A stretch of 48,732 bases of DNA, filler included, from Jimgerdemannia flammicorona (lineage: Eukaryota): assembly GCA_003990765.1 (NCBI GenBank). It is 2 parts of 2 records of this genome, joined end to end, with 100 filler letters (N's around TTAATTAATTAA, not from the genome) between each part and the next. Parts side by side here need not be neighbours in the genome. Positions count along the whole stretch, not along the records: positions 24,423 to 48,732 come from RBNJ01000991.1; 1 more part is not named here. One strand, given 5' to 3'. Below are positions 5,909 to 48,732 of the stretch, piece after piece (the first letter of the stretch is position 1; every line of letters starts with the position of its first letter). The position numbers and the translations under genes are program-made. The notes beneath the pieces are model-generated. The model was given only the letters and a program-made list of their open reading frames with translations, had not been told where the DNA came from and ran no database searches.

Positions 5909-5995
5909 CACTCTTTTCCTTGGAACGGTTTTCGGTCCTTTTCAACTGCACCTTCACTACCCACGAGTTCAAACACCAATACCGGCTCTGACCAC

Positions 5996-7360
5996 ATGCC
6001 ACCCCAAACCACGAGCTCAAGGCCAATATCGGCTCCCGACCACGTGGACCAACTCACCTCAATATCGATACCGCCTCTCGATCACATTCCAGACCAAGTC
6101 ATTCCAACCGTCCAGCACAAGGCATGTATGTCATGCCGCCAGAAAAAGAAAGGCTGCCCCCATGTCAATGAGAACGTCCGTAAGAGGAATGTGCCTGGCA
6201 TTGTGTGTGTCCGCTGCAAGAATCTCAAGAAAACGTGCATGGGTGTTCCATGCCGCCGTTGCCGAGACGCTGGAGAATCCTGCCAACCCCAGCCGGATAG
6301 GGGGTTAACGAAAAAGGCCCAGCTAGTTGGTCAACGGTCTCGCTCCCGTTCCGAGAACCTAGAGATAATTGTGGCTCGACAACCTTTGCCGCAACGGGCA
6401 TCACAAACCACGGCCGGCCCGTCCCGTATGGCATTTACAGAAACGATTCCCGTCGATACCGTTCAAACGGTGATGAACGGAGAAACGGCGCCACATCAAA
6501 TGCCGACACATCTAGCGGCGCTCTCGCCATCTACTCAACTGATTATCTACAACGCGGCCCACGCAACATCCATACTATGTGCAAAATGTAAAGCTCCCCG
6601 GCAAACATCCCATAGTCTACTTTGTGCCCGCTGTCAAGGCGACAGTTTTTCCCTCCGCGCCGCCCTTGGCAACCAACTCGCGGTCTCACCGACCGCTCGC
6701 TCCGCCGCCGAGGTAACCTCGCTCGAGACAACACAGCGCCAAGCCTTCTGCTCGAAGATTAGATTTACCCTTCAGTCTATTTCAAGCGTCGTCTTAGCCA
6801 TATGTGCAGAACGATCACTGCCAAGGATTGTCAATGACATCGTTGAAGACCTAACCCAAGGATCATTCGCGGCAGCATTTTCGCCTCATGTGATACAATG
6901 TAAATGGTTACAACCGAAGCTGGATGACCGCTTTGTCATTGCCGCCTCGGACGATGCAGCCCGTGAGGTTCTCGATATAGTCTGTCGGTTAGGAACCTTT
7001 CTCGAAAGAGCTCGTGTTTTACGAAGTCACCCGACCATTGAAGACGATGTAAAGGCCTTTCTAGGGATTTTGAAAGAGATCCAAGATGCATTTCAGATCA
7101 AGGTGTGTAGTAGATGCTCACAAGCGCTCTCTGAATTCTTTGAATTTGATTGGGAGCCACTGAGAGTTTGTAAGGATACCATCAAGGGGTTTATGATATG
7201 GCGTACTTTAGTTTGGTATGACTGTATATGTCTATATGAGCTCTGTATCGGAACCCATCATGCTGATCTTACCAATTTTTCGGTGAAAGTGACCGATATT
7301 GCGGATATGATTTTCTTTGGTTATCATATATATGATCCTCATAAGCATTCTATAGACTAA
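5996..7360 (+). CDS. Intronless 454-aa protein with an N-terminal Zn(II)2Cys6-like cluster (three CX2CX6C half-sites), a second CX2C..CX2C motif and an unrecognised C-terminal domain
   Basis: Uninterrupted ORF; KACMSCRQKKKGC-x16-CVRCKNLKKTC-x4-CRRCRDAGESC; CAKC..CARC; reading frame and cysteines conserved in paralogs. Confidence 0.85.
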   Translation: MPPQTTSSRPISAPDHVDQLTSISIPPLDHIPDQVIPTVQHKACMSCRQKKKGCPHVNENVRKRNVPGIVCVRCKNLKKTCMGVPCRRCRDAGESCQPQPDRGLTKKAQLVGQRSRSRSENLEIIVARQPLPQRASQTTAGPSRMAFTETIPVDTVQTVMNGETAPHQMPTHLAALSPSTQLIIYNAAHATSILCAKCKAPRQTSHSLLCARCQGDSFSLRAALGNQLAVSPTARSAAEVTSLETTQRQAFCSKIRFTLQSISSVVLAICAERSLPRIVNDIVEDLTQGSFAAAFSPHVIQCKWLQPKLDDRFVIAASDDAAREVLDIVCRLGTFLERARVLRSHPTIEDDVKAFLGILKEIQDAFQIKVCSRCSQALSEFFEFDWEPLRVCKDTIKGFMIWRTLVWYDCICLYELCIGTHHADLTNFSVKVTDIADMIFFGYHIYDPHKHSID

Positions 7361-26182: not shown

Positions 26183-27261
26183 ATGGAAATGCATTCCCCC
26201 ATATTTTATGGATTTACCACTGAAGATTTAATCCTGATCTTTATCAAAGACTTTGAACAATTTGCTGTCATATGAGCTCTCAATATTGAAGCACAATTGG
26301 CCCTCTTACCTGTCAGCCTCAGAGGACCTACTAGAGACAAGTTCAATGCAGCTACTATTGCTGACACTGGTGCAGCCAAACTTACCAATATAAAGAACTT
26401 TCTCAGAACTACATACTATACTAAATAGATTAAGTAAGCTCTCAAAGATCAACTCAACACTATCTGCCAAGGACTCAATGAAGACTCTAACTCATTCTAT
26501 ACTCAAATCTGCCACCAGATTATCTTGGTTAGCTATAATAATGCCCTCAAGGAATAGATAGCTGACTCAACCTTCTTAAAAAGAGTCTATTATAAAATTG
26601 CTCTAACAATCTGATCTACTTCAGCTGCTCTGACTCTTGACTAGAAAGTGGTCTTTGCATAGAGATATTGGACCATCAGATACCTTGCTGAACACTCAAT
26701 AGAAAGGATAACTGGCATCAAGATAGAGCCACCAAAACTAACCAGTATTATATCCACTATAGCTCTCAATAGACAACTATCTCCACCTACCTCAAAGATG
26801 GCCAAAACCAACCCAGTGGAGGAACTCACCCAGTAATTTGTCAAGATGACTGCACACCTTAATGACATTGTCAGAAAAGTATGAAGTATCTACAGGAGAC
26901 CAGTGCAGAAGTTTGTAGCTACTATAGAGGAATATACTATTATATGCTTCAAATATAGAGAAGAAGACCACTATGCAAAGAATTGTATGACTGAAATAAG
27001 ATATAGAGCTCAACCAAGTAATACTATCAGAACTAGAGAACAAATCAATACAGTAGTTATTAAAGAGATTGGTAATACTGATGATGAAGAATACTATGAG
27101 AAGTCTAAATTCTACTCTGTTACTGAAGGTACCAGAACTCAGTCCAAGCCCTATGATAAGAAGGACAACAACAAGCTAGTTGGAAGATCAAAAAATACCC
27201 CAACCATCACTATTAAAAGTAAGATCCAATCTGAGAAGATTGATCAAGATATGGAGTTAGA
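26183..27261 (+). pseudogene. gag: gag of element 2 (continues after 33133)
   Basis: PIFYGFTTED; decayed knuckle CFKYREEDHYAKNC at ~26945-26988. Confidence 0.75.
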
Positions 27262-27343
27262 CATCTTTCTCTGGTAACATTCAGGTTACACAATCCTTTG
27301 GCAACACTTTCGACACAGTTTCTGGAGAAAAGCTACTAGTATC

Positions 27344-29358
27344 ATGGCAACCAACGAGCATCCTGAGATACGTACTGGGCAGGGTGGCCCTGGAGTGTTT
27401 GAATGGCAGCAAGTGGGGAGAGGCCCCAGCTTGGGGGGAAGTATGAGGGGCCTGCTGGTGGGAGGCCATGGTGGAGGAGGGGGCAGAGCTGGAGGTCCAG
27501 GGTCTGGCAGGGTGAGCTTTACGGAGAAGGTGAAGGGGGGTTGGCAGGGAGCTGGACTGGAGAGCTGGCTGAGAGGGGGGAAGGTACCGGTAAAGGCTAC
27601 CAGGCAGCAATCTCTTGGGGGTACCTCTCTGGAGGGCCATAGGGGTGGAGCTGGGGGGGTAGCAGCTGGGGCGGGGACTGTTGATGGGGGTGTGACAGGT
27701 GATCTGGAAAAAAATCTAGATGGGACTGCTGATGGTGAGCCGAGCAGTGGGAAGGGCACAAGGCCTGGGGACCTGGCGGATGGTGTAATGGGACTGGCAG
27801 TAGCTCTGTTACTCAAGAAGTTGATCTCAGCATTCATGGTCACACTGTGCTTCTAGGGCTTAGCAGTGATGGTGAAAATGGTGTTGGAGCTTATCACTAA
27901 GCAGGTGGCAGGAGCAGCTTCAGTGAAGTTTCTGAAGGGACTGGAGGGGGTGGAGGTGGGTTTTGAGGAGGTTGAACCACTAGAGGAGACACTGAAGATT
28001 GGGTTGGTGGTTGGAGAGGTGTGTGTTCCAATGGCGAGATGTTTGAAATGGGATCTGAGGGTGGTCCAACTGCTGGTGAAAGGAGTACTCATAGTCTCAT
28101 AGTGACAGCAATGGAGACAAGGAAGAGAGTGGAGGATGTCATGGTGGAGTATGGAGAGGTGGTGGATATTGGTTTCAGGGTCTGGGAAGGGACCATGCTC
28201 AGGACTGGGGATGTGGATGTGAGGATTCAGCTGGCTGGGAAAGAGGCTACTGGAAAGGCGAGGGACTGGCCTTCAGTGATGGTTTGGAGAGCATTCCTGT
28301 GCAAGGTGATGCAGGTAAAAGGAAGTGAAGAAGAGGAGGAAGATTTATTAGAAGCGCTGGAAGAACTGGATGGGGCTGTGGAGCAGCAAGCTAAGGCCTG
28401 GAAGACTTTCGAGGAGTTGACACGCCTGGAGGTAGTGGATGGAAAGAGGATTTGAGTGGACAAGGTGTAGTGGGAAAAGGCTCAGGGGCAGAAGAGGCAG
28501 AAGGATCTGCTGGCTAAGCTGGGGGGTGGACTACAGAAGGATGGGAGCATGAAGCCAGGTGCAGAAGGGGCTGGAGTGAGTGTCTGGGCTGGTGAGAGGA
28601 GTGGGAATGATGGGGCAAAGACAGGGAAGGCAAAAGAGGTGAAGATTAGCAATCCATATGCTGATGGCACCTTAGAGGTTTGGGACAAAGTCTGGGAGAA
28701 CTCCCCCACCCCTTCCCCTCTTATCAGATATGGCCTGGCTTCCAGGAACAAGTCTGGGGAGGATGTAACAATGCTGGGGACCCAGCAGGTGAAATTCAGC
28801 ATTCCGGAGATAATGAATGGGGACCAAGTAGTGGTGGCCGGGGAGGAGGAACTGGTGGATATCCCGGAGGTGTGGGATGAGGATGCGAGTGCTGGAGCTG
28901 ACACCATGATGCTGAATGGAGGGAGGCCAGCGACCCCTGGCGGAAAGGAGGTGGGGAACCTACTTTGGATGTACTGGATGATGAATAACCTGGCAGCAGA
29001 AGAGCTGGGGGAGGTGGACTTGTGTGGGATGAGTGACGAGTACTGGACAAGAATTTTGCAGGGGGAGGGAGTGCTGATGGCACTGAAGGCGGAAATTCTC
29101 GCAGTGTATCTGGAGGAGGAAGGGTATGAGTTGGTGGTAGTTGCTGGGAAGAAGGCTGAGTACTGTTGGAACAGGCATCATGGGTTGCAGCTTTGGCAGG
29201 AGGCTTGCATCAAGTACAGAGAGGAGTTTGAGGAGAAGGCTAATGAGGAGATGAATGAGCTGTTGACTGGATTGGAGGCTCAGAGGGCTGAAGAGGAGGA
29301 GGTGATGGCTGAACATAATCTGGACACAGCACAGGGGGAGATGGACATGGAGCAGTAG
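27344..29358 (+). pseudogene. LINE A ORF1 (Gly-rich N-terminus, possible RRM-like core, acidic C-terminus)
   Basis: Tiled ORFs 27344-27856, 27866-28102, 28021-28455 and 28549-29358; homologous to 43092-43862 (MARCL.WD, GKEATG..RDWP). Confidence 0.8.
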
Positions 29359-29388
29359 GGATTGATTGAGAACAAACCGTATTTCATT

Positions 29389-32300
29389 ATGAACAGTACA
29401 ACCAATATTTTTTCTTTGAACGTAAATGGGCTAAGGGGCACAGTTAGGTACAGGAATATTTTTATTTGATTGAAGGGATTGGAGGCCGATCTCTTCCTCT
29501 TGCAGGATGTCAGGTGTGAGAATGATTCTGATAGGATAGAATGGACTATGGAATGGGGTGGCATGGCGATTTAGAACAGCAAGGTTGGGATTCTGGTTCA
29601 GAAAGGCAGAGGAGAGATAAGGGATGTAAGGAGCTGGAGGGAGCAACTGGTCTGGGGTGAGTGGATTCGTACAGGTTGGGAGCCAGTCACAGTTGGCTCC
29701 TGTTACTGCCCTGCTGTGTGGGGGGAGCAGGTTGATTGGGTGAAAGGGCTCCTGGAGAGTGAGATCCTTGCTGAAACTGGGTTGGATATGCTTAGAGGAG
29801 ATTTCAATATGGTTTGGGATATACAGCTGGATAGAACTGATGGAGGATGGGGTACTAAGAGCAGAGGTGGGGGGCTGGTGATGTGGGAGGAGGTCGAAAG
29901 GCTTGGAGCACTGGTGGATGCTGGTAGGAAGCACTGGGGGGACAAGAGGGTATATACACATTGGGCTGGAGGGCTGGGGACAAGGATTGATTGGATTCTG
30001 ATAGCTGACTGTTGGGGCCACGATGTTTGGAAGATGCTAGAGGTAGAATGGTGTCTGTGGTCAGATCACTAGAGCCTTTTAGGATAGGGGTGTTTTGGGG
30101 GAAGTGGTGATGGGCCTGGACATTAGTGCCTAAATTCCTCCTTGTTGGATGATGAGTCCCAGTGGGAGGAGTGGGCGAAAGACATTCAGCTAAAGGTAGA
30201 GAATTGGCGGCAGGAAGGGGCTGCAATTGGGGTTCGGTGGATGAGGATGAAAGAGATGGCCAGGTTGTACTGGAGCAAGGCTGGCAGAGTGGCTAGGAAG
30301 CAGCAAAGGTGGAGAGTGCATTGGGCTTCTACTAGATTGGCTAAGCTCCTGGAGGAGTGGGCGAGACTGGCAGTGGTGGAGAGAGAAGAGGATTGGAGAA
30401 TAACGAGAGTGAAGATGGAGGTTGGGGAACTACAACAAGTGCTGTGGGAAGAGGAAGAGTTAAGGATGCAAGGCCTGGTGGCACAGCTTCGTTGGCAGGG
30501 GCTGGAGGAAGGGGAGAGACCTTCCAAGTTTCTCATGAGGACACTTCGAGCGAGAAGGGTACAGCAGTGGTAGGAAGGGGTACTTGACTCAAATGGTTTA
30601 CTAGTGCATGGTGTATAGGATATCCTTGGAATGCTGAAGGCGTGATGGAGTGGATTATGGAGTGAGGAGGAGGGTGGGGCAGATGCTATAGCCATTGACC
30701 AAACATTAGAAGATTGGCACCCACCACAAGCTGAGGGATTAGATGACCTGGTGATGCCTGTAATAGAGGATGAGATCTGCCAGGTTCTTGCCGCGACAGC
30801 CTTGGGTATGGCGCCTGGGGAGGATGGCCTACCCTGGGACTTCTGGAAGCGAATGGTTGGAGTCCCAGGTATGTTGGGGGAGCTGACAGCACTGTGTGAC
30901 TTTATATTGCAGTCAGGAAGATGGGTAGGGGAGCAGGATCTTGGACTGGTGATGCTGCTTTATAAGAACAAAGGAAGATGAGAGGATTGGAAGAACTGGC
31001 GGCCAATAATGTTGCTAGATATGGACAGAAAGTTGGTGACTAAGGTGGTGGTTGCAAGGCTACAGAAGGTAGCCCAGCAAATTGTGGGTGTTGAGCAGAG
31101 AGACTTCATAGGGGGTCAGCTTATTAGAGATGGCACAGCCTGGGTATATGGAGTCATTGAAGGTGCTCGAGCCTGTGGACTGGATGGGCATCTTGTCTTC
31201 TTGGACCAGGAGAAGGCTTATGACCAGGTGCGGTGAGTCTGGCTGGCAAAAGTATTAGATAGAATTGGGGTTCCGGTCCCATTTTGGTCAGTGATAGTCA
31301 GCCTACTGGAAAGGAGTAGAGCTGTACTCATGTGTAATGGGCATAGAGGGGTAGCATTCCCTCTGGGTAGGGGAGTGCCCCAGGGGGGCCCACTGTCCCC
31401 CATTTTGTATGCTCTTTCTTTGGAACCTCTAATGGACAGGATTCGATGGAGGATAGTGGGGCTCTCTATCTATGGAGTTGGCTGGAAAGTTGGAGCCTTT
31501 GCGGATGATATGGTGGTTGGTTTGGGAGTGACTGCTGATGTCGAGGAGCTTAAGAAGACAGTGGAGTGGTATGAAGAGAACTCTGGAGTGAAGCTGAATT
31601 GGCACAAGTGTGAAACAATGGTGCTGAGCAACAGCCTGGTGGGCAGAGAGGTTATTGGAACAATTGTCCCCACCGGAGAGGCAGTGCGGTACTTGGGCAT
31701 CTATTTGTCAGTCTATAGATCTGTTTTGCCCAGGCTGTGGTGGGAGCAGAGGATTGGAATTTGGGAGGAGGATCTGTAGAGTTGGGGGGGAAGACACTTC
31801 TCTCTGGCAGGAAGGATCTCAATTTTGAATGTATACTGGCTGCCGAAGCTGTGGTATTTGGCTTATCATCTGGACTTCCCAGCCTGGGTGGTGAAGAGAT
31901 TGGTAAAGGTGGCCAAGGGATGGATTTGGGCTGGCAGGCAGAGTCAGATTGGTTGGGAGACTTTGTCCCTACTGGTGGCAAGAGGTGGTCTTGGGCTGGT
32001 GGACTTCTCCAAACAACTACACTGCTTGAGGGCATGGTGGCTTAAGAGGGCAGTGGAGTTGTATGGAGGGGGCTGGGTTCCCCTGCTGCAGAATGTCTGG
32101 AAGAGGTAGTCATCACCAAGAGGCGCGACTAGTGATCTTCTTTCATTAGTTGGGCTTCGGAACACTGCACAACTGAGATATAAAGGCTTCTGGTGGGGGA
32201 TAGCTGAGGGGGTACACCACATTGGTATTCGCTGGCAAGGGGATGAGGGGGAGAGGGCTTGGGGCCTGGCGATGTGGAGATGGGATGGCATTCTTCTAGG

Positions 32301-33045
32301 AGGCATGTCTTTACTTGATTTCAACATTGGTGATGAGATTGAATGCCAAAGGGGACCAGGCCAGGATCTGTGGCCTAGTGGTTGGCAAGGAGTTGGAATT
32401 AGTGAGGAGTGGGACTGGAATGGGGTTCAGACCTAGAGTACCGCAGTGAAAAATTGGATGCTGCTGAAGTACTGAGTGGTCTGGTGGCATGTACTGAGGA
32501 GGAATGTGATGCTTAACTTCCGCTCTGGACACCTTGTTGTAGGGGGCTGCTTTGACTGTGAGGAGTGCCATAATGTAGGGCAGAAAGGAGAATTTGTACA
32601 GATGCCAGAACATTGGCTAGGGGAGTGTGAGGTGTTGGGAGACTTTTGGTGGGCCATTGGAGACTGCTTGGGGGTGAGGCATAGGGGAGATGATGTATGG
32701 GGTAGGTGGGAAGACCTGGGGGATCGATTGGTAGGAGGGGTAGGGGAGGAGTGGATTACTTTAGGCTGGGCATTGGCTATTTGGATTGGGCTGGCTGGTC
32801 ACTGGCTATTTGTATTTGAGGAGAAAAGGTGACAGAGCTTGGGGAGCTGGTTATCATGGTGGCAGTATCTTACAGAGGATACCTTGACAGGCTGGTGGCT
32901 TTGTTGGGGGCTGCAGGGGGGTCAGAGGCGCCGCTTGGTGGTAAAAATCTGTGGTCAGAGTGGTGGGAGAGTTGGAGTTGTTGGTGAGAGGGTGGTCTTT
33001 ATATGTGAAGAGGTGGAGAGGGGCCCCCCGATGGGGATTGGGTAG
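29389..33045 (+). pseudogene. LINE A ORF2 (APE endonuclease, RT, C-terminal Cys/His motif)
   Basis: SLNVNGL, GDFN, RIDWIL, SDH; PGEDGL, WRPIML, DQEKAYD, GVPQGGPLSP, FADD; CFDCEEC..EHWLGEC. Confidence 0.92.
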
Positions 33046-33790: not shown

Positions 33791-34149
33791 CTATTAATAT
33801 CCACAAATAAGTACTATCAGATATGGAGGAAGAAGATGAAAAGAATACTACACTAAGTATATAAGAACAAAAGCAAGACAACTAAGCTCACAGATGAGCA
33901 GTAGTACAACAAGATCATTGATGGCTATATCTCTCAAAGAAGATGCCCCTATAGTGCCAGAATGTACTGCTCTGAACACCTAAATAACTACTAGTCCTGT
34001 ATCAGTGAAGTCAGAAAAATCTGTCAATAAAAGCATGAGCAAGAAGTAGCTGAAGCAAAAAAGAAAGCCAAAGAAGATGACCAGCCCCCAGAGCTTCAAG
34101 CTGATAGTGATGATAAGGAGAAATAAGAACCAGACATCACTCTCAAGGT

Positions 34150-34520
34150 CAAGAAGTTTCACCCCAAAGCTAAGATCCCAGAATATAAGACTAAAGGAGT
34201 CATAGGAATAGACCTTGCTAGTATCCAAGATGCTATACTTGAACCACAAACCACTACTCTACTTGGCATTAGAATTGGAGTTGAGTTACTAGAGAATTAT
34301 GTCAGAATTATCAAGACTAGGAGTAGTCTGGCCAAGAGTGAAATCTCAGTTGAAGGAGGAATCATTGACTCTGATTATACTGGTGAGATCTTTCTTATAG
34401 TCAGGAATCACAACCCCACCACCCTATTCAAAGTCAAGAAGCATGACAGGATTGGCCAGACTGAAGCCATTGAACTCATCAAGACTAAGAGAGGAAAACA
34501 AGACTTTGAATCTACTGGAA
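34150..34520 (+). pseudogene. dUTPase domain of element 2
   Basis: GIDLAS, TRSSLAK, VEGGIIDSDYTGEI, DRIGQ, RGKQDFESTG. Confidence 0.85.
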
Positions 34521-34699
34521 GAGAAGTCTATACTGCTACCAAGATTACTGAACTCAAGCATAAGAAAGACAAAGACCAGAACAAGTACACATATATCATT
34601 GGAGAAAACTTTCTCCTAGAAAAACAACTTCTCAAAATTCTATATCAGAATAAAAGAGTACTTACCACAGACTTTAGAGATATCTATAATTAAAAACCT

Positions 34700-35398
34700 A
34701 AGTACTATTATAAAGTTGATACTAGTGATACTAAGTCCATCTATCAGAAAGTCAGACCCATATCACCTGCCTAAAGAGAATGGCTGCCAAGACTCCAAAC
34801 AACTACAGAAGTCTATACCTTTCTCAGACTGACATCTTACTATAGAAGATTCATCAAAGGATACTCCAGCATTATAGCATCTATCTATGAGCTACTGAAG
34901 AAAGAGATCAAGTTTAAATAGACTAAGAAATATCAAGAAATCCTTAATAAACTCAAGACCAAGTTGACCTAAGTATCTATTCTCAGAAGACCAGATTGGA
35001 ACCTAGAGTTCATCCTATAGACAGATGTAAGTGCTGTAGGACTTAAAGCAGTGCTAGCTCAGAAGAAAGATAAATATAAATATGTTATCTCCTATATAGG
35101 CCCAGATACTTATGGAGCAGAAAAAAACTATGAGTCATATAAGCTTAAATGCTTAGCAGTAGTCTGGGCAGTAGATAAGTTCTACTACTATCTAGCCAGA
35201 AAATACTTCACCATTCAAACATATTATTCTGCTCTCATCTGGCTATTCTACACTCTGAACTCCAAAGGAATATATACTAAATAGATCTACAGACTGTAAG
35301 AGTATGACTGTACTATCAAATACCATCTAGGAAGAACCAAAGTCAATGCTGATACACTCTCAAGGACATCCTAAAATACCCTCATCAAGACTATTTAA
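34700..35398 (+). pseudogene. RT N-terminal stub fused to RT thumb and RNase H of element 2
   Basis: YQKVRPISPA.REWL|PRLQTTTEVYTFL..YYRRFIKGYS; DVSAVGL, ADTLSR; no YxDD region. Confidence 0.8.
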
Positions 35399-35628
35399 CA
35401 TGAATAAAGAACTATACTATAGATTAATTAGCTATTTTGAGTAGCAGAAAATACCCAACTATCTCGAACTCTGGACTACTACTATTATTAACCAGACTTG
35501 AAAATAATTTGAACTAGACAATACCACACTCAGAAAAGAAGAAAAGCTCATTATATCTAAATATAGAAAGTATCAAGTAATGAAGAAAGTATATGAACCA
35601 GGATACTTAAGAGGAACTAATACATATA

Positions 35629-35963
35629 CAGAAGAGGAGGAAGGCCCAGTGGGAGCCAAGGGAGTGAACCCAAGCCAGTGTCAAAATGAACAGAAGACAT
35701 GTGGAAGAGCATATATAAGAGGGACAAACAAAGAACGTAACTGAAAATGCATCAGCCATTTATTACCACATAAAAACACAGTTCTTATATATAAAATATG
35801 ATGTCCCAAAAAGGAGGATGCACCACAACTCAGGGCAAACCGAATTAGGAACTACATGATCACTAGAGATAAGTAGAGATAAAGGAGGAGCCAATCCCTG
35901 TTGCAGGATAAAAATCACAAACAAATGCAAATAAAACAAATCCAAATTGGGATTAAAAAACAT
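35629..35963 (-). repeat. Inverted copy of PLE terminal repeat A
   Basis: Reverse complement of 36119-36454. Confidence 0.93.
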
Positions 35964-36118
35964 TCTTGCCCCCTCCGGGATCTCATGCTCACTCCAGGGT
36001 CTTGGCCTTACTCTGCTCTCCTCTGCTGCCTTTGGCCTCTTGCTTCACTCAGGCTTGCTGTGGCTCGCTCCATTTCGGCCTCACCCCTTGCTTATGCTCA
36101 CCCCTCCAGGGTCTGCAG

Positions 36119-36454
36119 ATGTTTTTTAATCCCGATTTGGATTTGTTTTGTTTGCATTTATTTGTGATTTTTATCCTGTAACTGGGATTGGCTCCCCCTT
36201 TATCTCTGCTTATCTCTAGTGGTCATGTGGTTCCTAATTCAGTTTGCCCGAAGTTGTGGCATGTCCTCCCTTTTGGGATGTTGTATTTTGTATATAAGGA
36301 CCACGTTTTTACATGGCAATAAATGGCTGATGCATTTTCGGTTATGTTTTTTATTCATCCCCCTTATACATACTCTTCCACATATCTTCTGTTTGTTTTG
36401 ACACTGGCTCTGGGTTCGCTCCCTTGGCTCCCACTGGGCCTTCCTCCTCCTCTG
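36119..36454 (+). repeat. 5' direct copy of PLE repeat A (pseudo-LTR), overlapping the ORF1 frame
   Basis: Contains TATATAAG (36291) and AATAAA (36318); matches 39596-39916. Confidence 0.93.
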
Positions 36455-37589
36455 CTGTACTTCCTGCCCTTGGGGCTTCTGTCCTCATCAACAAGCTCAT
36501 GGATGAGGTTCTTCCTCCTCCTCCTCTCCCTGCCTTCACCCCTGCTACTGTCTCATTCGAGACCTATATCTTGTCTGTCATTCTTTCCCTCCCCCTGGAC
36601 CTTCGTCCCTCTGGTCATCTGCTCCTCTCTCAGTTCCAGTTGGTTCTTGCCCTCTCTGCCAAGAAGGCTTGTCTCTGCCATGATGTCAATATCATTGCTC
36701 TGCCTGCTATCTGCTACTCCATTCTCCCCAAGGCCCACCACCAAGCTCTCTCTGAAGAGATTTGTGCCACCACTGCTGCTGCCAAGCTTGCTGCTACTGA
36801 TGCTGCTGCTACTTCCACCACCACTGCTTCCACCTCCTTCCACCACACCTGTGCTGCCTTCATGGCCTTCACCTCCTCTCGCCTTTTGGATGCTGCCCTC
36901 TTCTGTAGCTTCACCATCCATGAGGTTCCTTCTGTCACTGCTGATATTGACACTATGTATTGTTTCCTCCTCACCAACACTTCTTTTGTTGCTCACCTTC
37001 ATGAGCAGGAGACATTACATGCTACCACTGCTGCTTGTGCCACTGCCACTACTCCCCTGTCGCCTCCCCTGAGGTTTCAGTCTCCAAGGCCATTCATGCC
37101 AAAGCCTGCACTGCTGCCTATGCTGAGGTCCATTCCTTCACCACCGCTGCTGCCAAGACCCCCTCCAAGACCCCCACCAAGACCCCCACCAAGCCCAACC
37201 AGGCTTCATCAGCCTCTTCTCAGTCTCTCTCCCCTGCCAAGGCTTCCTCCTCTATTCCCCCTGCCCCCAAGCATGGCCACCAACTTGGTTCTCACTCTGT
37301 CGGGGTCTGGTCTTGTGCTATCTGCTCTGGTCACCTCCACCATACCTACTGGCACCTGGCTAAGTCCATCTGTCCTCATGGTGGTATTCCTTGCACTGCT
37401 GCCCCTTCAGCTGCTTGCTCACCTTTGGCCTCCTCTGCTGATTCCTCCTCCACCCATGCCCCTGAATATAAAGGCTGTACAAAAGCCTGTGGCTATAAGG
37501 TCTGGCACTCTGATGGGGTATGCTCCCATTTGTTGAGTTCATCACCTTCAAAAAAAGTCAGAGGGAAGGAGAAGGCCTCCTGCTCTTAA
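36424..37589 (+). pseudogene. PLE ORF1 (frameshift near 37060) with Cys/His-rich C-terminus
   Basis: ORFs 36424-37536 and 37035-37589; first in-frame ATG at 36499; CAICSGHLHH..CPHGGIPC and CTKACGYKVWH..C. Confidence 0.65.
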
Positions 37590-37599
37590 ACTTCCCCCC

Positions 37600-39600
37600 A
37601 GTATAGTTCTCCCCCGGTGTCTCTGTCCCTTCTTGGATTTCATCATCACTTCTGGTGTACTCTAAGTGGTTTCTCATGTTGTCCCCCCTTCACCTTTCCT
37701 AGTTGCTCATCCCAAACTTTCGGGTTTATTCTTCTCTTGGAACACTTTTGTCTCCTCCTTTCTCTTTAGCTGATTGCCCCCTTTCTCCTCTTCAAGTCTT
37801 TGCTTTGTCCTTGGGTCCTTGCTTCATTTTTCCTACAGCTCCCTCACAATTCTCCTTCACTGATTCGGCTCATCTCACATGTTTTCATCGTGCTTTTGAC
37901 CTTGCCATTTTCTTTTAAGATTGTGGTGAGATGTTCTCACTATTTTGTTCCCAGCAATTGGGTCCCCCCTCCCAATGTCTCTTCATACTGCATATTCCTC
38001 AATATGGCTTACTTGCTATCTGTTCCCAGATGCGCTTGCTCTTGCTTGGTTTCGGACTATGCCATATGTACCATGCTTAAATTGGTCAAGCAATTGCCCA
38101 TGTACTTGCTCACAGTCACTAATAAGAATCAAGGTTTTGTACTTATTCCTAAGTCACTCTACCTTAATGGCCTTTCTGCCCTCCTTTGAGCCATGGCTTA
38201 TGGGCCTAGTGCTCTTAGATTGGATGAGATTCTCACTCTTCTTTGGGTTTCTCTGGCTCATGCTAGATCACTTTCAGATTCTCCATTCACAAACCCTATT
38301 TTTAACTTCTTCCAGGACTCTTTGTCCTCTCTAGATATTTGTCTTCCGGTTTTCTATGCCCTTCCTAAAGTTCACAAGTCTACTTTGGCTTGACATCCCA
38401 TTATGGCTGCTTGTAATTCCCCTACCACCAAGATTTCAAAGTGGTTATCCCACTTCTTCCTCTCCTAGATAGCTCTCTTACAATACCATCTTGGGCCTGA
38501 GTATACTATTCTTCATGATACTCAGGAGCTCGCCCTTCTCTGCTCCACTATTGTGCCTGTTCACTATTTTTCCCACTTGGTCTCTGGTGATTTCTCCTCT
38601 TTTTATACTGCTATTTGTTTTGATGAGATCGATGATTGCCTTCACTTCTTGGGTTCCATTGTTTTTCCTTTGGACTCCCAGTCTCATTGGCTTCCATTGT
38701 TGAGCTTATGCTCCTTGTCTATGGCTCTAATTATTTTGAGTCAGCCCTTGGCTCCTTTTACCAGACTTCTGATATTGCTATGAGAATGAATTATGCCCCC
38801 ATCCTTGCCAACCTCATTGGCCTGGCCCATGAACTGCATGTGATATGTGATCTCTCTTCATCTCTTTCCATCATGTTCTGGGCTGGAGATATCTTCTTTC
38901 ACTGATATATCGATGACTTTATCATCTTTGCTGTTGCTGGTATTGATATCCCTAGTGTGTTTCTGGGCATCTACCCTCCCCACCACTCCATTACTTAGGT
39001 GTGCAGTATGACTAGTATCCCCTTTTTGGACCTTTCCATTTCTCTTTCTCCTTTCCAAACTGTTGTTTATTCATGTTTTCCCCATTCCCAACAGTTCTCT
39101 GACTTCTTGTCCAATCATCCTCATCATACTCTTTTTGAATGTGTTCATAGTGAGGCTCATTGTCTTGCACTATACTGCTCCTATCATTCCGATTGGGTGT
39201 CTGCTGTTCAGGTTCTTGGCAACTTCATGGTCCATCACCATGCCTATCCCATTTCTATCATTCATGATCTGCTTGCTTCTGTTGAATGATCTGTTGTTCG
39301 CTCCACCCTTCTCTCTCCTCTTTACCCCTCCTCCCTTCTCTCCCTCTCCTCTTACCCTCTCTGTACCCTCTCTTCTTTCCCACCTCTGATTCTCATTGTA
39401 CCATTTGATCATGCTTACTAGATTGCTCAATGTCCTGATACTGTCCTGTGCTCTTCTCTTTCTCGCCATGGACTTTCATCTCTTTCTCAACACTCTCTGA
39501 TTGCTCATTCACATCTTCCTTCTGTTTCTTCTTTAATCCATCACTCTCATTTTGCATTTTCGTCACCTTCTGGTGCCTCTGGCTCTGCTGGAGAGGATTT
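37600..39600 (+). pseudogene. PLE reverse transcriptase ORF2
   Basis: LSLGPCFI, FYALPKVHK...PI, GDFSSFYT, IAM..NYAPILANL, YIDD, IPFLDL, SNHP. Confidence 0.9.
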
Positions 39601-39916
39601 GGATTTGTTTTGTTTGTGTTTGTTTGTGATTTTTATCCTACAACTGGGATTGGCTCCCCCTTTATCTCCACTTATCTCTGGCAGTCATGTGGTTCCTAAT
39701 TCAGTTTGTCCTGAGTTGTGGTGCATCCTCCCTTTTGGGATGTCATATTTTGTATATAAGGACTGCGTTTTTATGTGGCAATAAATGGCTGATGCATTTT
39801 TGGTTATGTTCTTTGTTTGTCTCCCTTATACATACTCTTCCACATGTCTTCCATTCGTTTTGACACTGGCTCTGGATTTGCTCCCTTGGCTCCTGCTGGG
39901 CCTTCCTCCTCCTCTG
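39596..39916 (+). repeat. 3' direct copy of PLE repeat A
   Basis: Matches 36134-36454; ends CTCTG followed by TA. Confidence 0.93.
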
Positions 39917-41562
39917 TAACAAGATAAGAAGAACTATATTGTGGCCTAAGATAGAAGAAGATCTACACCAATCTATCAAAGAGTATAACAAGTATCAAAA
40001 ACAGAAATAAGATCAGTAAGACTAGGCACCTATATCATCAAGAATTGAACTTATTCTCTTCCACCACATTATAATTGACATCATTGGACCACTATCAGTA
40101 ACTCTATTAGAAAACCACTATATTATAGTTATTGTAGATCTCTTTATGAAATAGATAGAAGTAGGAGCATTATAAGAAGCCAATGCTCTCTCTATTACTG
40201 ACTTCCTGTATTGAGAAATCATCTACTACTACAAGATACCAAGGCAAATTACCACAGACCATGGTACAGAATTTGTCAACAGATTCTATAAGATAATGTA
40301 TCAGAAATACAAGATTCAGTATATTAAGACTACCATATATCACCTTTAAGAAAATAAATAGATGGAAAGAACAAACAAGACCCTCAAGAATATTCTGGCC
40401 AAGATCTCAGATACATATGAGAATTGGGATAACTACCTCCCAACTGCCCTCTCTATCCTATGAGACATATGATTACAGAGTACACACTTTATCCCAAGAG
40501 AACTGCTCTTTAGAGAAGAAGATTCTGATAGAACCTCAGCTACAAATCTAGACCTAACTTAGTGATGAATTGACTCAGAAATCCAGAGACTACACCAAAT
40601 CAGGAAGAAGGTAGAAGATTATATCATCAAGTTATAAGCACTAATAAGAAATAATATAGAAAAGAATCACGAGACCCTAGAATCCATTCAAATTGGAGAA
40701 AAGGTCTTGCTATATCAAAATATAGTAGAAGCCTCATGGTCATAAAAATTAGAGCCTAAATGAGAAGGACCCTTCTATGTATAAGATATCAAGAGAACTA
40801 TCTTTTGGCTTAGAAAACTCTCAGAGACTATACTATCTACTATAGTATATAGGAACAGACTCAAGAAGTACCATGAACCTATATAAGAGAAGTAAAACAT
40901 GATGACCACCCACAAAGTTCTAGTCTGTGAATCATAACAGTATATCCTATGACCAGCAGGTAATCTGTCTAGACTATTCTCTAAGAGATATAGTACTAGT
41001 AACTACTTATCTATGAGACTTTTGAAGCTAGGGGAGTTTGAACTATCAACTAATTAGTCAAGATCAAAATTAGGCCCTTGCTCTATATGAAGGGAGCTAT
41101 TTTTCACTATTATGCCAAAATACATAAGAAAGATACCAGCCCATAAATACTACTTTTTGACCTCCTGCCAGAGATTATAGGATCAGAAATTTTTTCAGAC
41201 TAGACTAATGAATAAGGACATTTAAGAGAAGATCTGTATTCAGAAGAAAGATATAATAGTAATCTCAGAATAATGATATCATTATAGGAGACAGCCTTTC
41301 CTTACAAGCTATCAGATTGGAGTACAGGAAGATTAAATGGTATGACTCACCCAGGCTACAAAATGAGCAATAATGTCATAATAACTACATGATAGACATC
41401 TCAAGGGAAATAAAAGAAGAACCAAGAAACTGCAGCAGTAGCAACTCAACCAAGACTCACAAAATCTCAAAATAGTTCAAAAGACTCACTATAAATAAAA
41501 TACCTACTACTTACCAAATCTCAAGGTCCAGAAACCACTAAGGCTTCTCAGTCTAAGAAAGG

Positions 41563-42855: not shown

Positions 42856-44698
42856 ATGGCAACTCAGAGATCATCAAGCTCTGAGTGTTTGGAGAGAAGG
42901 AGGCCTGGTCTGGATCTCCCTAAGAGTTTTGTGGCAATAGTTGGAGCTGGTGTAGGGGCAAGAGGAGTAGGTGGTCAGGGGAGACAGGCTGATATTGAGA
43001 GTTGGCACACAGTGATGGGGGGCAAGAGGGCAGCTACTAGGCCCATGGGGGTAGAGCTGGGGGGATGTAGTGTTGACAGGAGTGGAGTCAGGTGACTGGC
43101 CAGGTGACTGGTCAGGTGACAGGTCAGGTGCCTGCTAGGGGCCAGGGGTCTGGAAGTGGTGTGGCTGGGACTGGTATTCCTGGGGCTGGACCGGTGGCTG
43201 GGGTGATTACTGGAGTGTCAAAGAACAGGAAGAAGGTGATGATGGCAGCAGGTTCTGGTGAACTGATGGTGCATCCCTTCTTCCATAAGTCGGTATCAAC
43301 ATGGGCCATTTCAGCGAATTTTCTGGGACTGGGGATGTCTGCTAGAGAGGTCTTGCAGCTAGTGGGAGAGGAGATTGCAGAGGCAGAGTTACTGAAGTTC
43401 ATCCCATCAGCTGAGGTAGTTGAGATAGGATTTGTTGAGGAGGAGGAGATGGTGAAGGCCTTGGAGAAAGGGCTGGTCATCAAGAACATCAAGGTTGGTA
43501 TGGCGAGGTGCCTGAGATGGGACCCATGGGTAGTGCGACTGGTGATTGAAGGGCTGCTGACATTAGAGAGACAGGAGACCAAAGGAATGGTGGCAGAGGT
43601 GCTGGGGGCATTTGGCGAGATGGTGGATTTTGGATTCATGTTCTGGGAGGGGACTAAGCTGAGGAATGGCAATTGCGAGGTGATGGTGAGGCTGGAAGGC
43701 AAGGAGGCCACAGGGCAAGGGAGGGATTGGCCAGAAGTAATTTGTATCAGAGAGCAGGAGTGCAAAGTGTGGAGAAGGAAGGGTTCTGAACAGGAGGAGG
43801 AGGAATTGCTAGTCACCCTAGAGGAGAGAGAGGCTGCAAAGGAACTGTGGAAGTGGAGATGAGAGGAGTTTGCCAAAGACTGGATCTAGATCCTGACAGA
43901 TGGGAGGAGGAAGAGGTGGTGAAGGGCAAACTGGGAGCACCTGCAGACAGTCCTCCAGGGCTCAGAAAGGGAGGAAAAGGAAAGAGCAGAGGTGGCCAAA
44001 AATCAGATGGAAGAGGTGGAGATGGCTGAGGTGTCCTTTTTATAACTAGGGGGTGTGGAGAACTCCACTCATGTACCGGTAAAGAGGAAGTGGGCTGATA
44101 AGGAGGAGGTGACTGCTGGGAGCTTTGAGGAGGTTATCAAGGTGGTACTGGAGACCCAGTTGGAGGATGTCCACATGGCAGGAGCGGCAAATGTCATTGG
44201 GAATGCCCAGAAGCAGGCAAAGTGGTTCAGCTGGAGAAAGGCACTAAGGAGGACGACCTAGTGGATGTGGCATCCAACATGTCAGTGGATAGAGAGATGC
44301 TGCAGGAGCTGAGTAGGACCCTGAGGCCTGCCACTCCTGGGCCCATGGTGATGACGGCAGATGACTGGTATCAGGCAGTACTTGAGGAACTTGTAGAGGA
44401 GGATATCAAGGAAGTGGATGTATTCAATAGATCATAGGAGGCCTGGGAAGGGTTCCTCAATGTGGTATTGTAGGGGCCAAAGTTGGTGATAGTGATGGTG
44501 GCAGTGCTTCTGGATGATGAAGGATATGAGGTAGATGAGGACCATATGGCTGATATCAGGAAGGTAGCATCAGAGTGAGTGGATGCCTTCTGCAGTGGTG
44601 GGAATAGAGTCCATATCTGGAGGGCTATCTGCAAGGAATGGAAGGCAATAATCTGTGGTAGGGCTGAAAAGGTGGTGGTGACTCCAGCTGAGCTTTAA
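42856..44698 (+). pseudogene. LINE B ORF1
   Basis: MATQ start; homologous to LINE A ORF1; short VTGQ repeats. Confidence 0.78.
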
Positions 44699-44710
44699 AT
44701 ATTTATATCC

Positions 44711-47700
44711 ATGATGATGAACAGTCTATGTATATTATCACTAAATATTGATGGTTTGTGTGATGGAGTGAAGTGAAGGCATCTGTTTCGGTAGCTGAAG
44801 ATCAGGAGGTATGATGTAGTATTTCTGCAGGACATTCAGGCCTATGGAGAGCAAGATTATGAGGAGTGGAGCAAGGAATGGTTTGGTAGTACAGGGTGGA
44901 ATGAGCAGGTGGGGCTTGGGGAGAGGAGAGCTGAAGGAGGTTGAGATATATAGTGATCAATTGATCTGGGGGAGATTGAAAGGAGGAGCTGGCAATGGGC
45001 TGGTGGTTGGCTCTGTGTATCTGCCAGTAGTTGGCAGAGAGCAAAACCAATGAGTGGAAGGTTGGCTGGATTGGGGAGGCCAAGATGAGATTGGGCTGGA
45101 TGTTCTGGGAGAGGACTTCAATATGGTGCATGACAGGACACTAGATAGGTCTGATAGTGAAGTTGGTGTGGTGGTTTTAACAGGGCTCTCGCGATGGCTG
45201 CAAATTGAGAAGGAAATGGGATTGGTTGATGGAGTATGATAATGTCAAGGTGCGAAGTCAGGACCATTCACTAGGTAGCAACTGGTCAGTGAGGATTTGG
45301 TTGGCATGAGGATTGACTGGATTCTGGTAGCAGAATGCTGGGGCAATGTTTTGGATTTGACAGAGGTACAGTGGTGTCCCTGGTCAGATCACTGGGGTGT
45401 GGAGGTGTGTGGGAGATTCCAGGCGGCCAGTGGCAGTGGAGGCAGATGGAGACTTAATGTGGCACTACTTAAGAGACAGGTGGAGCAGGACCAGTTTGTT
45501 AAAATTGCAAGAAAGGAAGTGGCATGGTGGAAGAACAGTGGCCAGTCAATAGCACAGTGGTGGGGGAAATTTAAATATTTGGCAGGTACATATTGGTGTA
45601 ATGTAGGAGAGGTAGCTGGGAGGGAGCAGAAGGATAGAAAAAGGAGAGTGGAGCAGGAGCTTTGCTGGTGGCTGAGGCTTCTGGAAGGAGAGAACTCCTC
45701 CAGGGTACAATGCTCCCTGTTGATTAAGGAGATAGCTGAGTTGCAGTCATATTTGAAGGTAGCAGAAGATAGGGTAGTGGATGGGTTGCTGGCAAGATTG
45801 TGAGCAAAGTGGTTGGAAGAAGGCAAGCGACCCACCAAATACTTGTCCAGAATCCTGAAGGCCAGGAGGGTGCAGCACAGCTGGGCTTCGGTGTTGTGAG
45901 AGGATGGAACTGAGGTGACTGATATCACAGATATGCTTGGGGAGATCTCTGGTTGATGGTGCACCCTATGGCAGGATGATGGAGGGCTGGTGGAGGGAGA
46001 GACAGCACTGGAGGCTAATAATGATTTGGTTGGTGGTTGGCCAGTAGTGGCAGAGCCTGTGATTGGTGAGGCAGTAATAGGTAGGGTGACCCTTGAAGAG
46101 GTGTTGGAGGTTCTGAGGAAAGTGCAGGCTGGTTCATCACCAGGGGAGGATGGACTGCCTTGAGAGTTCTGGAAGGAGTTTCGAATAGAGTTTGGGGCAT
46201 AGCTTGTAGAAATGGTGAACTTTATGCTAGGGGAAGGCTGCTGGATTGGCAATGGCTCCTTAGGGCTAGTCTCTCTGCTCTATAAGGAGAAAGGGGACAG
46301 ATGTGTGTGGCAGAACTGGAGGCCCATCATGTTGCCGAATGTGGATAGGAAGTTGGTCTCCAAGATTCTGGCAGGGAGAATGCAACAATGGATTGGCTGA
46401 TTGGTGAGTGATGAATAGTGAGGGTTTGTGAAGGGAGACAGATTCGAGATAGCACAGCCTGGGTGCAAAATGTTTTGGAGGGTTGTAGAAGCTGGCAGGT
46501 AGATGGAAGAATGGTGTTCTTGGACCAGGAAAAGGCGTACAATAGGGTGCGATGGAGCTACTTGGAGGTGGTTCTATGGAAGACTGGGTTTGGCATGGGG
46601 GAGGCTCGCAAACTGATGGGTCTGGTGCAAGGTTGCCAGGCAGCAGTGTTGATGAATGGGTAGAGTGGCCCAGAGTTTTTCTTAGGGCAAGGTGTACCAC
46701 AGGGGGACCCTCTTTCGCCCCTACTTTATATTTTATCTTTGGAGCCCTTGTTGGCATAGCTGAAGGGGAGGCTTACTGGATTGAAGATGGGGGATGTGGT
46801 CTGGAAGCTGGGGGCCTTTGTGGATGATATGGTGGTAGGGTTAGGCAGTATAGAAGATGTGGTGAGCTTGCAGGAAGGGGTAGGACAGTATGAGATGTTG
46901 GCAGGGGTGAAACTGAACTGGGGCAAGTGTGAGACCATGGAGCTTGGAGCTGGCTTGGGGGAGCATGGACACTTTGGACAATTAGTTGGTCCTGGGGAGG
47001 CAGTTCAATATTTGGATATCTGGTTCTCAGTATATGGGACAGTGTTGCTGAAAGAGTAGTGGTGTAGATTGGTACAGAAATGGGAGAACACCTTGGTGGG
47101 CTGGTCTGGGAGGGGCTTCTCTTTGGTTGGGAGGATTGTAGTCTTGAATATATATTGGTTACCAAAGCTGTGGTACTTGGGGTACCACCTGGACTTTCCA
47201 GGATGGGTGGTGCAGAAACTGAAAAAGGTGGTCGAAGGATAGCTATGGCAGAGAAGAAGACTACAGATTAGTTGAGAGGTAATGGTGACGCTGAGGGCAG
47301 ATGGAGGTCTGGGGCTGGTGGACTTTAGAAGGCATCTGAAGGCACTTCAGGGCTGGTGGGGTTATTGAATGGCAGAATTAGGAGGGGAGGGTTGGAGAAA
47401 ACTGGCTATGGAAAACTGGGAAGTTAGGTTCTGCCCCCAGAGTGAGATTTGGAAGGATATGTGAGGTTTGCTCCAGGTTGGAAGGGTTGGCAGGTTGCAC
47501 TATCAGGGATTCTGGTGGGGTATTGTGGAAGCTTGGCTAGTGATGGGACTTATGGGCCCAGAGCCTGGCAAAGAAGAGGAGGACCCAGAACAGCAATGGT
47601 GGCAATTTGGTGTGATTCGTATTGGCAGCCACCAGTTGGTTGAATACTCTTTAACTGGGGCAATGGAGTGGATCCAGACAGGTCTGCTTGAGAGGTGGCC

Positions 47701-48300
47701 AGTTGGTTGGCAGAAGGCTGGGTTTGGAGAAGAGTGGGAGTGGGGTTGGGTTTGGGGCTGGGGGACCTCACTACTCAAGATTGCCCCACCTAAGTTCTGG
47801 GTGGTATAGTGGTGATTTTTATGGAGGAATGTTATGCTGGGGTATAGGATGGGGTGGATGGTGGATGAAGGTGTGAAGGAATGTGAGTGGTGCTGTGAGC
47901 TGGATGGGAGAGTGGTGCAGATGCCAGAGCATGTTCTGGCAGCCTGTCCAGGGGTTGAAGGATTTTGGCAGACATTAGAAGGTTATTGGAGGGAAGAGAG
48001 TGAGCAGGCAGGGGGCCCCACTTGCCAGATGATCAAGCGTCGACTGGTGGGAGACATTGGGGATATCTGGGGAGACCTGGGTCGAATTATCGGCATCTGG
48101 GTACTGATGGCAGTATACTGGCGATGGGTGTTCGAGAGAGATCCTTTGATGGAAATTGGAGAATTGGTAGAGTGGTGAAAGGGGTTACTTTTGGAAGTGG
48201 TGCAAGGGTGGTGGTATCAGGGGCAGAGGCACCAGTTAGGGGCTATGAAGAAGGTGTTAGACATTGTTCAGAGGAGTCAGGAGCACCTCATACTTGGTGA
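44711..48300 (+). pseudogene. LINE B ORF2 (APE endonuclease, RT, Cys/His motif)
   Basis: SLNIDGL, EDFN, RIDWIL, SDH, PGEDGL, WRPIML, DQEKAY, GVPQGDPLSP, FVDD, CEWC..EHVLAAC. Confidence 0.92.
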
Positions 48301-48438
48301 GAAGGGGGTAAGGTGGAAAGAAGGAGTTGGTTGAAGTTGGTTAAAGGGCTCTACTTATATATGTTATGTGATGTTAGTAGTGGATTGTGGTTAGTTGATA
48401 TTATATTAGATAGTTCATAATAAAGGAGTCCAAGTAAC

Positions 48439-48474
<36 letters not shown>

Positions 48475-48624
48475 AGTTTGAGGACTATAAGATCTTGGAA
48501 AAGTACTCTAATAGAACTTACTTATAAGAAACTTATAGTTGGTCTAAGAGATACACCTTGAAGAGAATCTGATGTACTTGGAGAACTCAGTGCCCACTAT
48601 ATGATAGTATATACTAAATTGAAC

Positions 48625-48732
48625 ATACCATTCCAGTCTGATATACTGTTCTAGTCTGGTATGCTGTTCTAGTTTAATATACTGTTCTGGTATAGTATAC
48701 TGTTTTAGTCTGGTATACTGTTCTAGTTAGAT
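48625..48732 (+). repeat. 18-bp tandem repeat, consensus ATACTGTTCTAGTCTGGT, six units to the window end
   Basis: Read directly. Confidence 0.85.

What the first reader, a model, noticed from the sequence alone, without database searches (positions are those of the whole stretch)
35627..39918. Endonuclease-less Penelope-type retroelement with DNA-transposon-like ends (TA-CAG...CTG-TA) at an interstitial site
Seen: the layout is TA-[A inverted, 335 bp]-[155-bp spacer]-[A]-ORF1-RT-[A]-TA. Both outer ends stop at the same nucleotide of A, giving ~320-bp terminal inverted repeats that begin CAG and end CTG. Removing the element and one TA restores the host integrase frame (N-T-Y-N-K). I see no GIY-YIG motif before or after the RT and no telomeric repeats at the junctions. 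Known: EN-minus PLEs (Athena, Coprina) are described mainly at telomeres; inverted pLTR arrangements occur in PLEs; a TA TSD with CAG ends is the Tc1/mariner signature. Inference: either two RNA 3' ends primed at a staggered break, or this is an RT-encoding element integrated by a DDE transposase in trans.
Basis: partly seen in the sequence, partly recalled or inferred. Interest (0 to 1): 0.8.

Follow-up and report, generated by a model that had tools for sequence, protein, structure and literature searches.

The report
Cut-free fungal retroelement with built-in foldback
A telomerase-like jumping gene with no DNA-cutting domain has spread to many internal sites of a fungal genome, nearly always as a head-to-head palindrome joined at one short built-in inverted repeat, which suggests it patches broken DNA from both ends rather than being pasted in by a transposase.

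Summary
The layout is real: inverted A, 155-bp spacer, A, ORF1, RT, A, with a true 2-bp TA duplication (11 empty host paralogs). The Tc1/mariner reading fails. The element belongs to a high-copy family in this fungal genome (1282 RT candidates). Only 4 of 89 outer ends read CTG-TA, and ends are ragged. Resolved target sites range from 2-, 58-, 218- and 455-bp duplications to 3-78-bp losses.

It is an endonuclease-less Penelope-like element. No GIY-YIG was found in any copy, and its RT groups with EN-minus relatives. No telomeric repeats lie at 89 ends, no copy lies in 15 telomere-repeat loci, and there is no hammerhead core.

What is new: 49 of 53 head-to-head junctions sit on a 15-bp inverted repeat built into the pLTR. 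The spacer occurs in both orientations, and both arms of one insertion share subfamily markers. Best model: RT primes at both ends of a pre-existing break from one internal RNA site, and the cDNA snaps back on the 15-bp repeat. The papers read ascribe this architecture to the endonuclease and say fungal EN-minus PLEs lack it.

The parts
35627..35628 (+). left copy of the 2-bp TA target-site duplication (particular to this insertion)
   Evidence: 11 empty paralogs give a net gain of 2 bp
35629..35965 (-). inverted (fold-back) arm: pLTR from the inner 15-bp repeat to the fixed RT start site
35951..35965 (+). IRa, first arm of the 15-bp inverted repeat; 5' end of the pLTR and the point where the two arms join
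   Evidence: 49 of 53 junctions overlap here by 13-15 bp
35966..36116 (+). pLTR spacer (loop between IRa and IRb); found in either orientation among copies
   Evidence: fold of a natural copy z = -3.5 as RNA, z = -1.5 as DNA for the window copy
36117..36131 (+). IRb, second arm of the 15-bp inverted repeat
35951..36454 (+). 5' direct pLTR (~505 bp); its 3' part overlaps the start of ORF1
36331..37589 (+). ORF1 (about 420 codons in open copies; helical N-half, Cys/His-rich C-end; no family match); frameshifted in the window copy
37550..37556 (+). A7 run in the ORF1/ORF2 overlap; candidate -1 frameshift site (inferred)
   Evidence: present in 38 of 41 bodies
37514..39601 (+). ORF2: Penelope-type RT (GxRF, DKN, RT core, YIDD at 38906-38917, thumb) ending with no endonuclease; 696 codons in open copies, broken here
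39596..39916 (+). 3' pLTR remnant; has lost the IRa-spacer-IRb stem-loop (183 nt) at a 4-nt microhomology
   Evidence: same loss in L134, which is not among the 12 copies sharing most markers with the window
39917..39918 (+). right copy of the TA duplication
34127..35626 (+). host: decayed Ty3/gypsy-type pol region (dUTPase at 34127-34693; integrase zinc-binding part up to the insertion)
   Evidence: the gypsy and integrase labels rest on recalled motifs
39919..40900 (+). host: continuation of the interrupted integrase region (right limit approximate)

Best explanation
An endonuclease-less Penelope-like retroelement family that spreads by filling DNA breaks or nicks it does not make. SHOWN: two overlapping ORFs ending after the RT thumb; dispersed high copy number; both outer ends at one internal site about 500 nt into the pLTR, ragged by a few bases; a head-to-head junction fixed on a 15-bp inverted repeat; variable target gain or loss. 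INFERRED: (1) The RNA starts at IRa and carries both pLTRs. (2) A free DNA 3' end primes RT at the internal site of either pLTR, giving a 0.5-kb or a 4.1-kb cDNA. (3) At the RNA 5' end the cDNA ends in the complement of IRa, folds onto its own IRb copy and extends into plus strand. (4) The other broken end primes a second cDNA from the same site of the same template lineage, and this cDNA pairs with the fold-back strand. (5) Host repair seals the ends. This yields tail-out palindromes with short or long arms, either spacer orientation, and whatever duplication or loss the break dictated. TA in the window is one such outcome.
For: 49 of 53 junctions on the 15-bp repeat. In none of the 61 sequences mapped does pLTR position 1 abut host DNA, and only 3 loci (L068, L080, L090) show an internal 5' end without inversion. 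Arm classes among 53 junctions: spacer arm long/other arm short 29, both long 9, spacer arm short/other arm long 7, both short 1, cut 7. Ends ragged: 35 of 85 run 5 nt or more into the extension, against about 5 expected from a fixed end. Repeats of one insertion share more transversions than repeats of different insertions (0.63-0.73 vs 0.11), and no column tells inverted arms from direct ones in 945 tests. The two long arms of one insertion share 13, 7 and 6 transversions against 3.1 between insertions (3 pairs). Target outcomes resolved for 11 of 29 complete insertions: duplications of 2, ~58, ~218 and ~455 bp; losses of ~3, ~6, up to 6, ~54 and ~78 bp; 2 with unrelated left flanks. A PLE-type EN profile finds 27 of 189 stored proteins but no element copy in 744 frames. 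Internal RT initiation early in the ORF, on both strands, is shown in vitro for an EN-plus PLE (PMC11167929, parts 1-2 read).
Against: No biochemistry and no RNA data. Duplications of 58-455 bp look like two staggered nicks, which a borrowed nuclease could equally make. Only 11 of 29 sites were resolved, several against 1-2 paralogs at 75-88% identity. The two mismatched-flank cases may be later recombination between copies. The stem-loop is only weakly favoured as DNA in the decayed window copy (z = -1.5). Marker sharing cannot separate one RNA from several RNAs of a temporally dominant source, nor from gene conversion. Four junctions (L067, L079, L083, L092) are off the repeat. Copies were picked by best similarity, so long, less decayed insertions are over-represented.
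Confidence: 0.55

Rival explanations
1. Same RT steps, but the nicks come in trans from another element's nuclease (for example the APE endonuclease of the abundant LINEs) or from a host nuclease recruited by the RNP.
For: LINE-type RT sequences are in the window and serve as hosts. Long direct duplications fit staggered nicks. Copy number is high for an element that waits for chance breaks.
Against: No flank motif: the first two flank bases spread over 16 dinucleotides, and the flanks are 63% AT. The best 10 of 34 GIY-YIG hits in the genome show no PLE RT nearby, are not CpG-depleted, and three of them carry LSU rRNA or group I/II intron matches, so they look mitochondrial; the other 24 were not inspected. 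A PLE-type EN query found nothing in G000, a weak negative.
Confidence: 0.25
2. The palindrome is inherited. The whole inverted-arm unit is copied as one template and joined to breaks by end-joining, and spacer flips and arm homogeneity come from later recombination or conversion between the inverted repeats.
For: The commonest form is uniform (29 of 53). Inverted repeats can flip a spacer. Conversion would also make the arms alike.
Against: There are no variants private to inverted arms. Left ends are as ragged as right ends and sit at the same site. Arm lengths fall into two classes set by the two pLTRs. Arms of one insertion differ by ~8%, no less than 5' and 3' pLTRs do, so there is no sign of ongoing conversion.
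Confidence: 0.12
3. ORF1 or the RT N-terminus holds an unrecognised nuclease, so the element is self-sufficient.
For: ORF1 has no family match and its model is of low confidence. It ends in a Cys/His-rich segment.
Against: ORF1 is mostly helical or low-complexity. It has no GIY-YIG signal. There is no target preference.
Confidence: 0.05
4. An RT-carrying element with true TIRs that is integrated by a Tc1/mariner DDE transposase in trans.
For: The window copy has TA-CAG...CTG-TA and a real TA duplication.
Against: 4 of 89 ends read CTG-TA; the ends are ragged; 10 of 11 resolved sites are not TA duplications. Short direct repeats of 2 bp or more occur at 11 of 29 junctions against 26% in shuffled pairs, at most a slight excess.
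Confidence: 0.03

Closest known systems
Coprina (fungal EN-minus PLEs; PMC8557442 and PMC13159263, passages read)
   Same: RT with DKN motif and thumb, no endonuclease, ORF1 plus RT ORF, pLTRs overlapping ORF1; the RT sits among EN-minus relatives, apart from the EN-plus clade.
   Different: Not telomeric, no CCCTAA stretch, no hammerhead core, near-obligate inverted arm, dispersed at high copy number. A classical Coprina-like element with CCCTAA, a hammerhead core and direct pLTRs exists in the same genome (L163) and is only distantly related.
EN-plus Penelope/Poseidon elements, e.g. Pen2a_Av of Adineta vaga (PMC3846280, passages and Discussion read) and PAc (PMC11167929)
   Same: Inverted pLTR + direct pLTR + ORF + pLTR; a 15-bp overlap at the inverted junction in Pen2a_Av; pLTR includes the ORF start; internal RT start; dispersed.
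   Different: No GIY-YIG, two ORFs, no fixed short TSD, no 30-40-bp tail (longest extension 10 nt), fungal host. That paper states that fungal EN-deficient PLEs do not share this organisation.
PLE-X of Chara braunii and spike mosses (PMC8557442, parts 1, 2, 4, section 15 and passages read)
   Same: Endonuclease-less yet genome-wide (Chara); mechanism called open there.
   Different: PLE-X belong to the Chlamys group, with a CxC motif and hammerheads. This RT has DKN, no CxC motif and no finger insertion by eye, and no hammerhead core. No PLE-X sequence was in my tree.
Tc1/mariner elements and MITEs (recalled)
   Same: TA duplication and CAG...CTG ends in this single copy.
   Different: The family shows neither feature; no transposase is encoded.

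Membership tests
Penelope-like elements | PLE-type RT (GxKF, DKG/DKN, core, thumb) | tested here: met
   hits include RT + GIY-YIG proteins
Penelope-like elements | pLTRs from partial tandems, direct and inverted, overlapping the ORF start | tested here: met
Penelope-like elements | hammerhead ribozyme in the pLTR | tested here: not met
   Rfam found none in the window copy; no CTGAnGA...GAAA in the column-majority sequence, whereas the same kind of scan finds it in L163; atypical variants not excluded
EN-plus PLEs (Penelope/Poseidon, Neptune, Nematis, Hydra, Naiad, Chlamys) | GIY-YIG endonuclease N- or C-terminal to RT | tested here: not met
   many natural copies have an open 696-codon frame ending after the thumb
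Coprina / Athena (EN-minus) | no endonuclease domain | tested here: met
Coprina / Athena (EN-minus) | telomeric location and reverse-complement telomeric repeats at the 3' end | tested here: not met
   0 of 89 ends with two or more telomeric units in 150 nt; 0 of 15 TTAGGG loci hold the family; the assembly is fragmented, so not all telomeres were seen
Coprina / Athena (EN-minus) | RT falls in the Coprina clade | tested here: inconclusive
   own clade with four relatives (SH-aLRT 100) among EN-minus RTs; deep branches weak; no named Coprina, Athena or TERT reference in the tree; quick tree only
Chlamys / PLE-X | CxC motif and insertion in fingers domain | tested here: not met
   by inspection; no profile test
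Tc1/mariner | invariant TA target duplication and precise TIR ends | tested here: not met
Tc1/mariner | TIR match to an autonomous transposase family in the genome | not tested
   no such search was run

The most novel reading that the evidence does not exclude
A distinct lineage of endonuclease-less PLEs has left the telomere niche and reached high copy number by acting as an RNA-templated patch for both ends of chromosome breaks. A 15-bp inverted repeat in the pLTR serves as a programmed snap-back primer. This would show that the hallmark inverted-pLTR structure of PLEs is set by the RNA/cDNA and not by the GIY-YIG nuclease, and it would give a simple two-component system to test this.
Probability: 0.5. 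Interest if true: 0.75.

Novelty: new variant of a known kind. Interest (0 to 1): 0.62.

Why it matters
How PLEs make their tandem and inverted ends is an open question. PMC8557442 calls it very likely that endonuclease cleavage determines them, and leaves open how EN-less groups spread genome-wide. PMC3846280 says fungal EN-deficient PLEs do not share the structure. Here a fungal EN-less family has the structure in nearly every copy, with a fixed cis element at the junction, so the cause can be tested directly. The family also bears on how telomerase-like RTs use free DNA ends away from telomeres. Finally, it warns annotators that such insertions can mimic TIR transposons.

Tried and rejected
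- Tc1/mariner reading: rejected.
- Idea that the 183 nt missing from the window's 3' pLTR are a spliced intron: rejected, because the ends are a GATT microhomology at the stem base and not GT-AG.
- Microhomology priming as the cause of the ragged ends: the window's empty site lacks the extra bases, so ragged initiation fits better; 1-2-nt overlaps are seen at L076, L137 and L142.
- Rfam on the element: only a weak chance-level hit.
- ORF1: Pfam, Atlas and single-sequence fold uninformative (mean pLDDT 43), so no fold search was run.
- The first EN profile was built from wrong domain picks and was redone. The frame for host paralogs was off by one and was redone.
- The L138 flank search did not reach the junction.
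- No RNA holder listed. Contigs of two public runs hold pieces of the family at 80-99% likeness but do not span the junctions.
- Viral contigs: nothing. Metagenome contigs: 78 loci at only 23-29% identity, 7 with EN, none informative on architecture.
- Solved structures: only weak bacterial RT hits.
- Earlier findings: nothing.
- The careful tree did not finish; the quick tree was used.
Full report
Observation. The window holds repeat A inverted at 35629-35963, direct at 36119-36454 and direct at 39596-39916, with 155 nt between the first two and 87-89% pairwise identity. The ends read TA-CAG and CTG-TA. Eleven of 12 loci compared gave the empty host site, all with a net gain of 2 bp, so the TA duplication is real here; these natural paralogs read T-N-[TI]-Y-[ND]-K in frame. 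The window copy is broken by stops and frameshifts.

Host and family. G000 is fungal: 44 matches to a fungal transcription-factor family, none in 14 control genomes. It has TTAGGG repeats at contig ends. Repeat A gave 1075 candidates. The RT gave 1282 candidates; all 83 scored matched near full length, on about 76 contigs, and many have an open 696-codon frame. These are lower bounds. I mapped 60 fetched loci plus the window; they were chosen by similarity, which favours long copies. The 32 copies aligned lie 6-13% from their column majority, mostly by C>T and G>A changes at CpG and CpA.

Anatomy. The unit is a 3658-bp monomer followed by a second copy of its first ~505 bp, a PLE partial tandem. 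The pLTR is IRa (15 bp), 151 bp, IRb (15 bp), then the rest of A, and it overlaps the start of ORF1. ORF1 has about 420 codons and no family match. It overlaps ORF2 in the -1 frame at an A7 run kept in 38 of 41 bodies, a possible frameshift site (inference). ORF2 carries GxRF, DKN, the RT core and the thumb, and stops there; so do P0004 (48% identical) and P0040, the two close relatives that are complete at that end. A profile of PLE GIY-YIG domains finds 27 of 189 stored proteins, and weakly the intron-type GIY-YIG loci, but no element copy in 744 frames. In a quick tree of 47 RTs the family forms a clade with four relatives (SH-aLRT 100), one of them from Racocetra fulgida. The clade lies among EN-minus RTs and apart from the 14 EN-plus rows; deep support is weak and no named references were present.

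Not Tc1/mariner. Of 89 outer ends, 4 read CTG-TA. The ends stop at one site plus 0-7 nt, and the first flank bases spread over 16 dinucleotides. Of 29 complete insertions, 11 could be resolved: duplications of 2 (window), ~58, ~218 and ~455 bp; losses of ~3, ~6, up to 6, ~54 and ~78 bp; and two whose left flank is absent from 7 of 7 and 5 of 5 empty paralog loci. The other 18 were not resolved. Exact repeats of 2 bp or more stand at 11 of 29 junctions against 26% of shuffled pairs.

Not telomeric. None of 89 ends has two telomeric units within 150 nt, and none of 15 TTAGGG loci holds the family. One of those loci, L163, holds a different, Coprina-like element with CCCTAA, a hammerhead core and direct pLTRs. 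It serves as an internal control for the motif scans, which found no hammerhead core in this family.

The fixed inversion. Of 53 head-to-head junctions, 49 overlap by 13-15 bp exactly on the IRa/IRb repeat; four are offset. No pLTR 5' end abuts host DNA. The spacer travels with the long arm in 29 cases and with the short arm in 7; both arms are long in 9 and both short in 1, and 7 are cut. The repeat closes a stem-loop (z = -3.5 as RNA in a natural copy; z = -1.5 as DNA in the window copy). That stem-loop was lost at the same microhomology in the 3' pLTR of the window and of L134, probably independently. All A copies of one insertion share subfamily markers, and no variant is private to inverted arms; the same holds for three pairs of long arms. 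So the inversion appears to be made anew at each insertion from one template lineage.

Mechanism (inferred). A free DNA end primes RT at an internal site of either pLTR. The cDNA runs to the RNA 5' end at IRa and snaps back on IRb. The second DNA end primes from the same site, the strands pair, and repair closes the gap. Internal initiation on both strands is shown in vitro for an EN-plus PLE (PMC11167929, parts 1-2 of 4 read). The source of the break is the least certain step: chance breaks (0.55) or a borrowed nuclease (0.25). The best 10 of 34 GIY-YIG hits look mitochondrial and lack a PLE RT nearby; a PLE-type EN query found nothing, which is weak evidence.

Comparison with print. Inverted pLTRs are a known PLE feature, and Pen2a_Av even has a 15-bp overlap (PMC3846280; passages and Discussion read). 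That paper says fungal EN-deficient PLEs do not share this organisation. PMC8557442 (parts 1, 2, 4, section 15 and passages read) ascribes the structure to endonuclease cleavage and notes EN-less PLE-X dispersed in Chara, with the mechanism open. PMC4209133, PMC13159263 and PMC6431247 (passages only) describe EN-minus PLEs as telomeric. Seven searches showed no report of a dispersed fungal EN-minus family with a fixed inversion point. [quoted passage not shown]

Verdict. The feature is real. It is a PLE, works like an EN-plus PLE in structure and spread, and fails the telomere and hammerhead tests for Coprina. It is a new variant of a known kind; interest 0.62.

Noticed in passing
window 34127-34693 (+): The host LTR-type element carries a dUTPase upstream of its RT region (Pfam E 1e-16); its integrase region has 1433 candidates in G000.
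   Followed up: partly
L163 (G000:C787), RT at about 5977-7156 on the - strand: A second, classical Coprina-like PLE with CCCTAA stretches, a hammerhead core and direct pLTRs, inside a contig.
   Followed up: partly
L113-L122 (G000:C509, C6559, C24471 and others): GIY-YIG genes without CpG depletion, some beside LSU rRNA and group I/II intron motifs; probably mitochondrial contigs.
   Followed up: partly
window about 27000-33000 and 43000-48700 (+): Decayed LINE-type elements with strong G skew; a related LINE is the target of copy L065.
   Followed up: no
L073, L077, L085, L097, L126: Complex tandem and nested arrays of the family, including extra truncated units ending at the same 3' site.
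   Followed up: no
L138:7225-7440 and about 40 other contigs: A short high-copy repeat that matches itself on both strands (MITE-like palindrome; 2173 candidates).
   Followed up: no
L069:6300-6729 and L076:5016-5079: The same 60-nt loss inside the pLTR spacer (unit positions 65-124) in two insertions.
   Followed up: no
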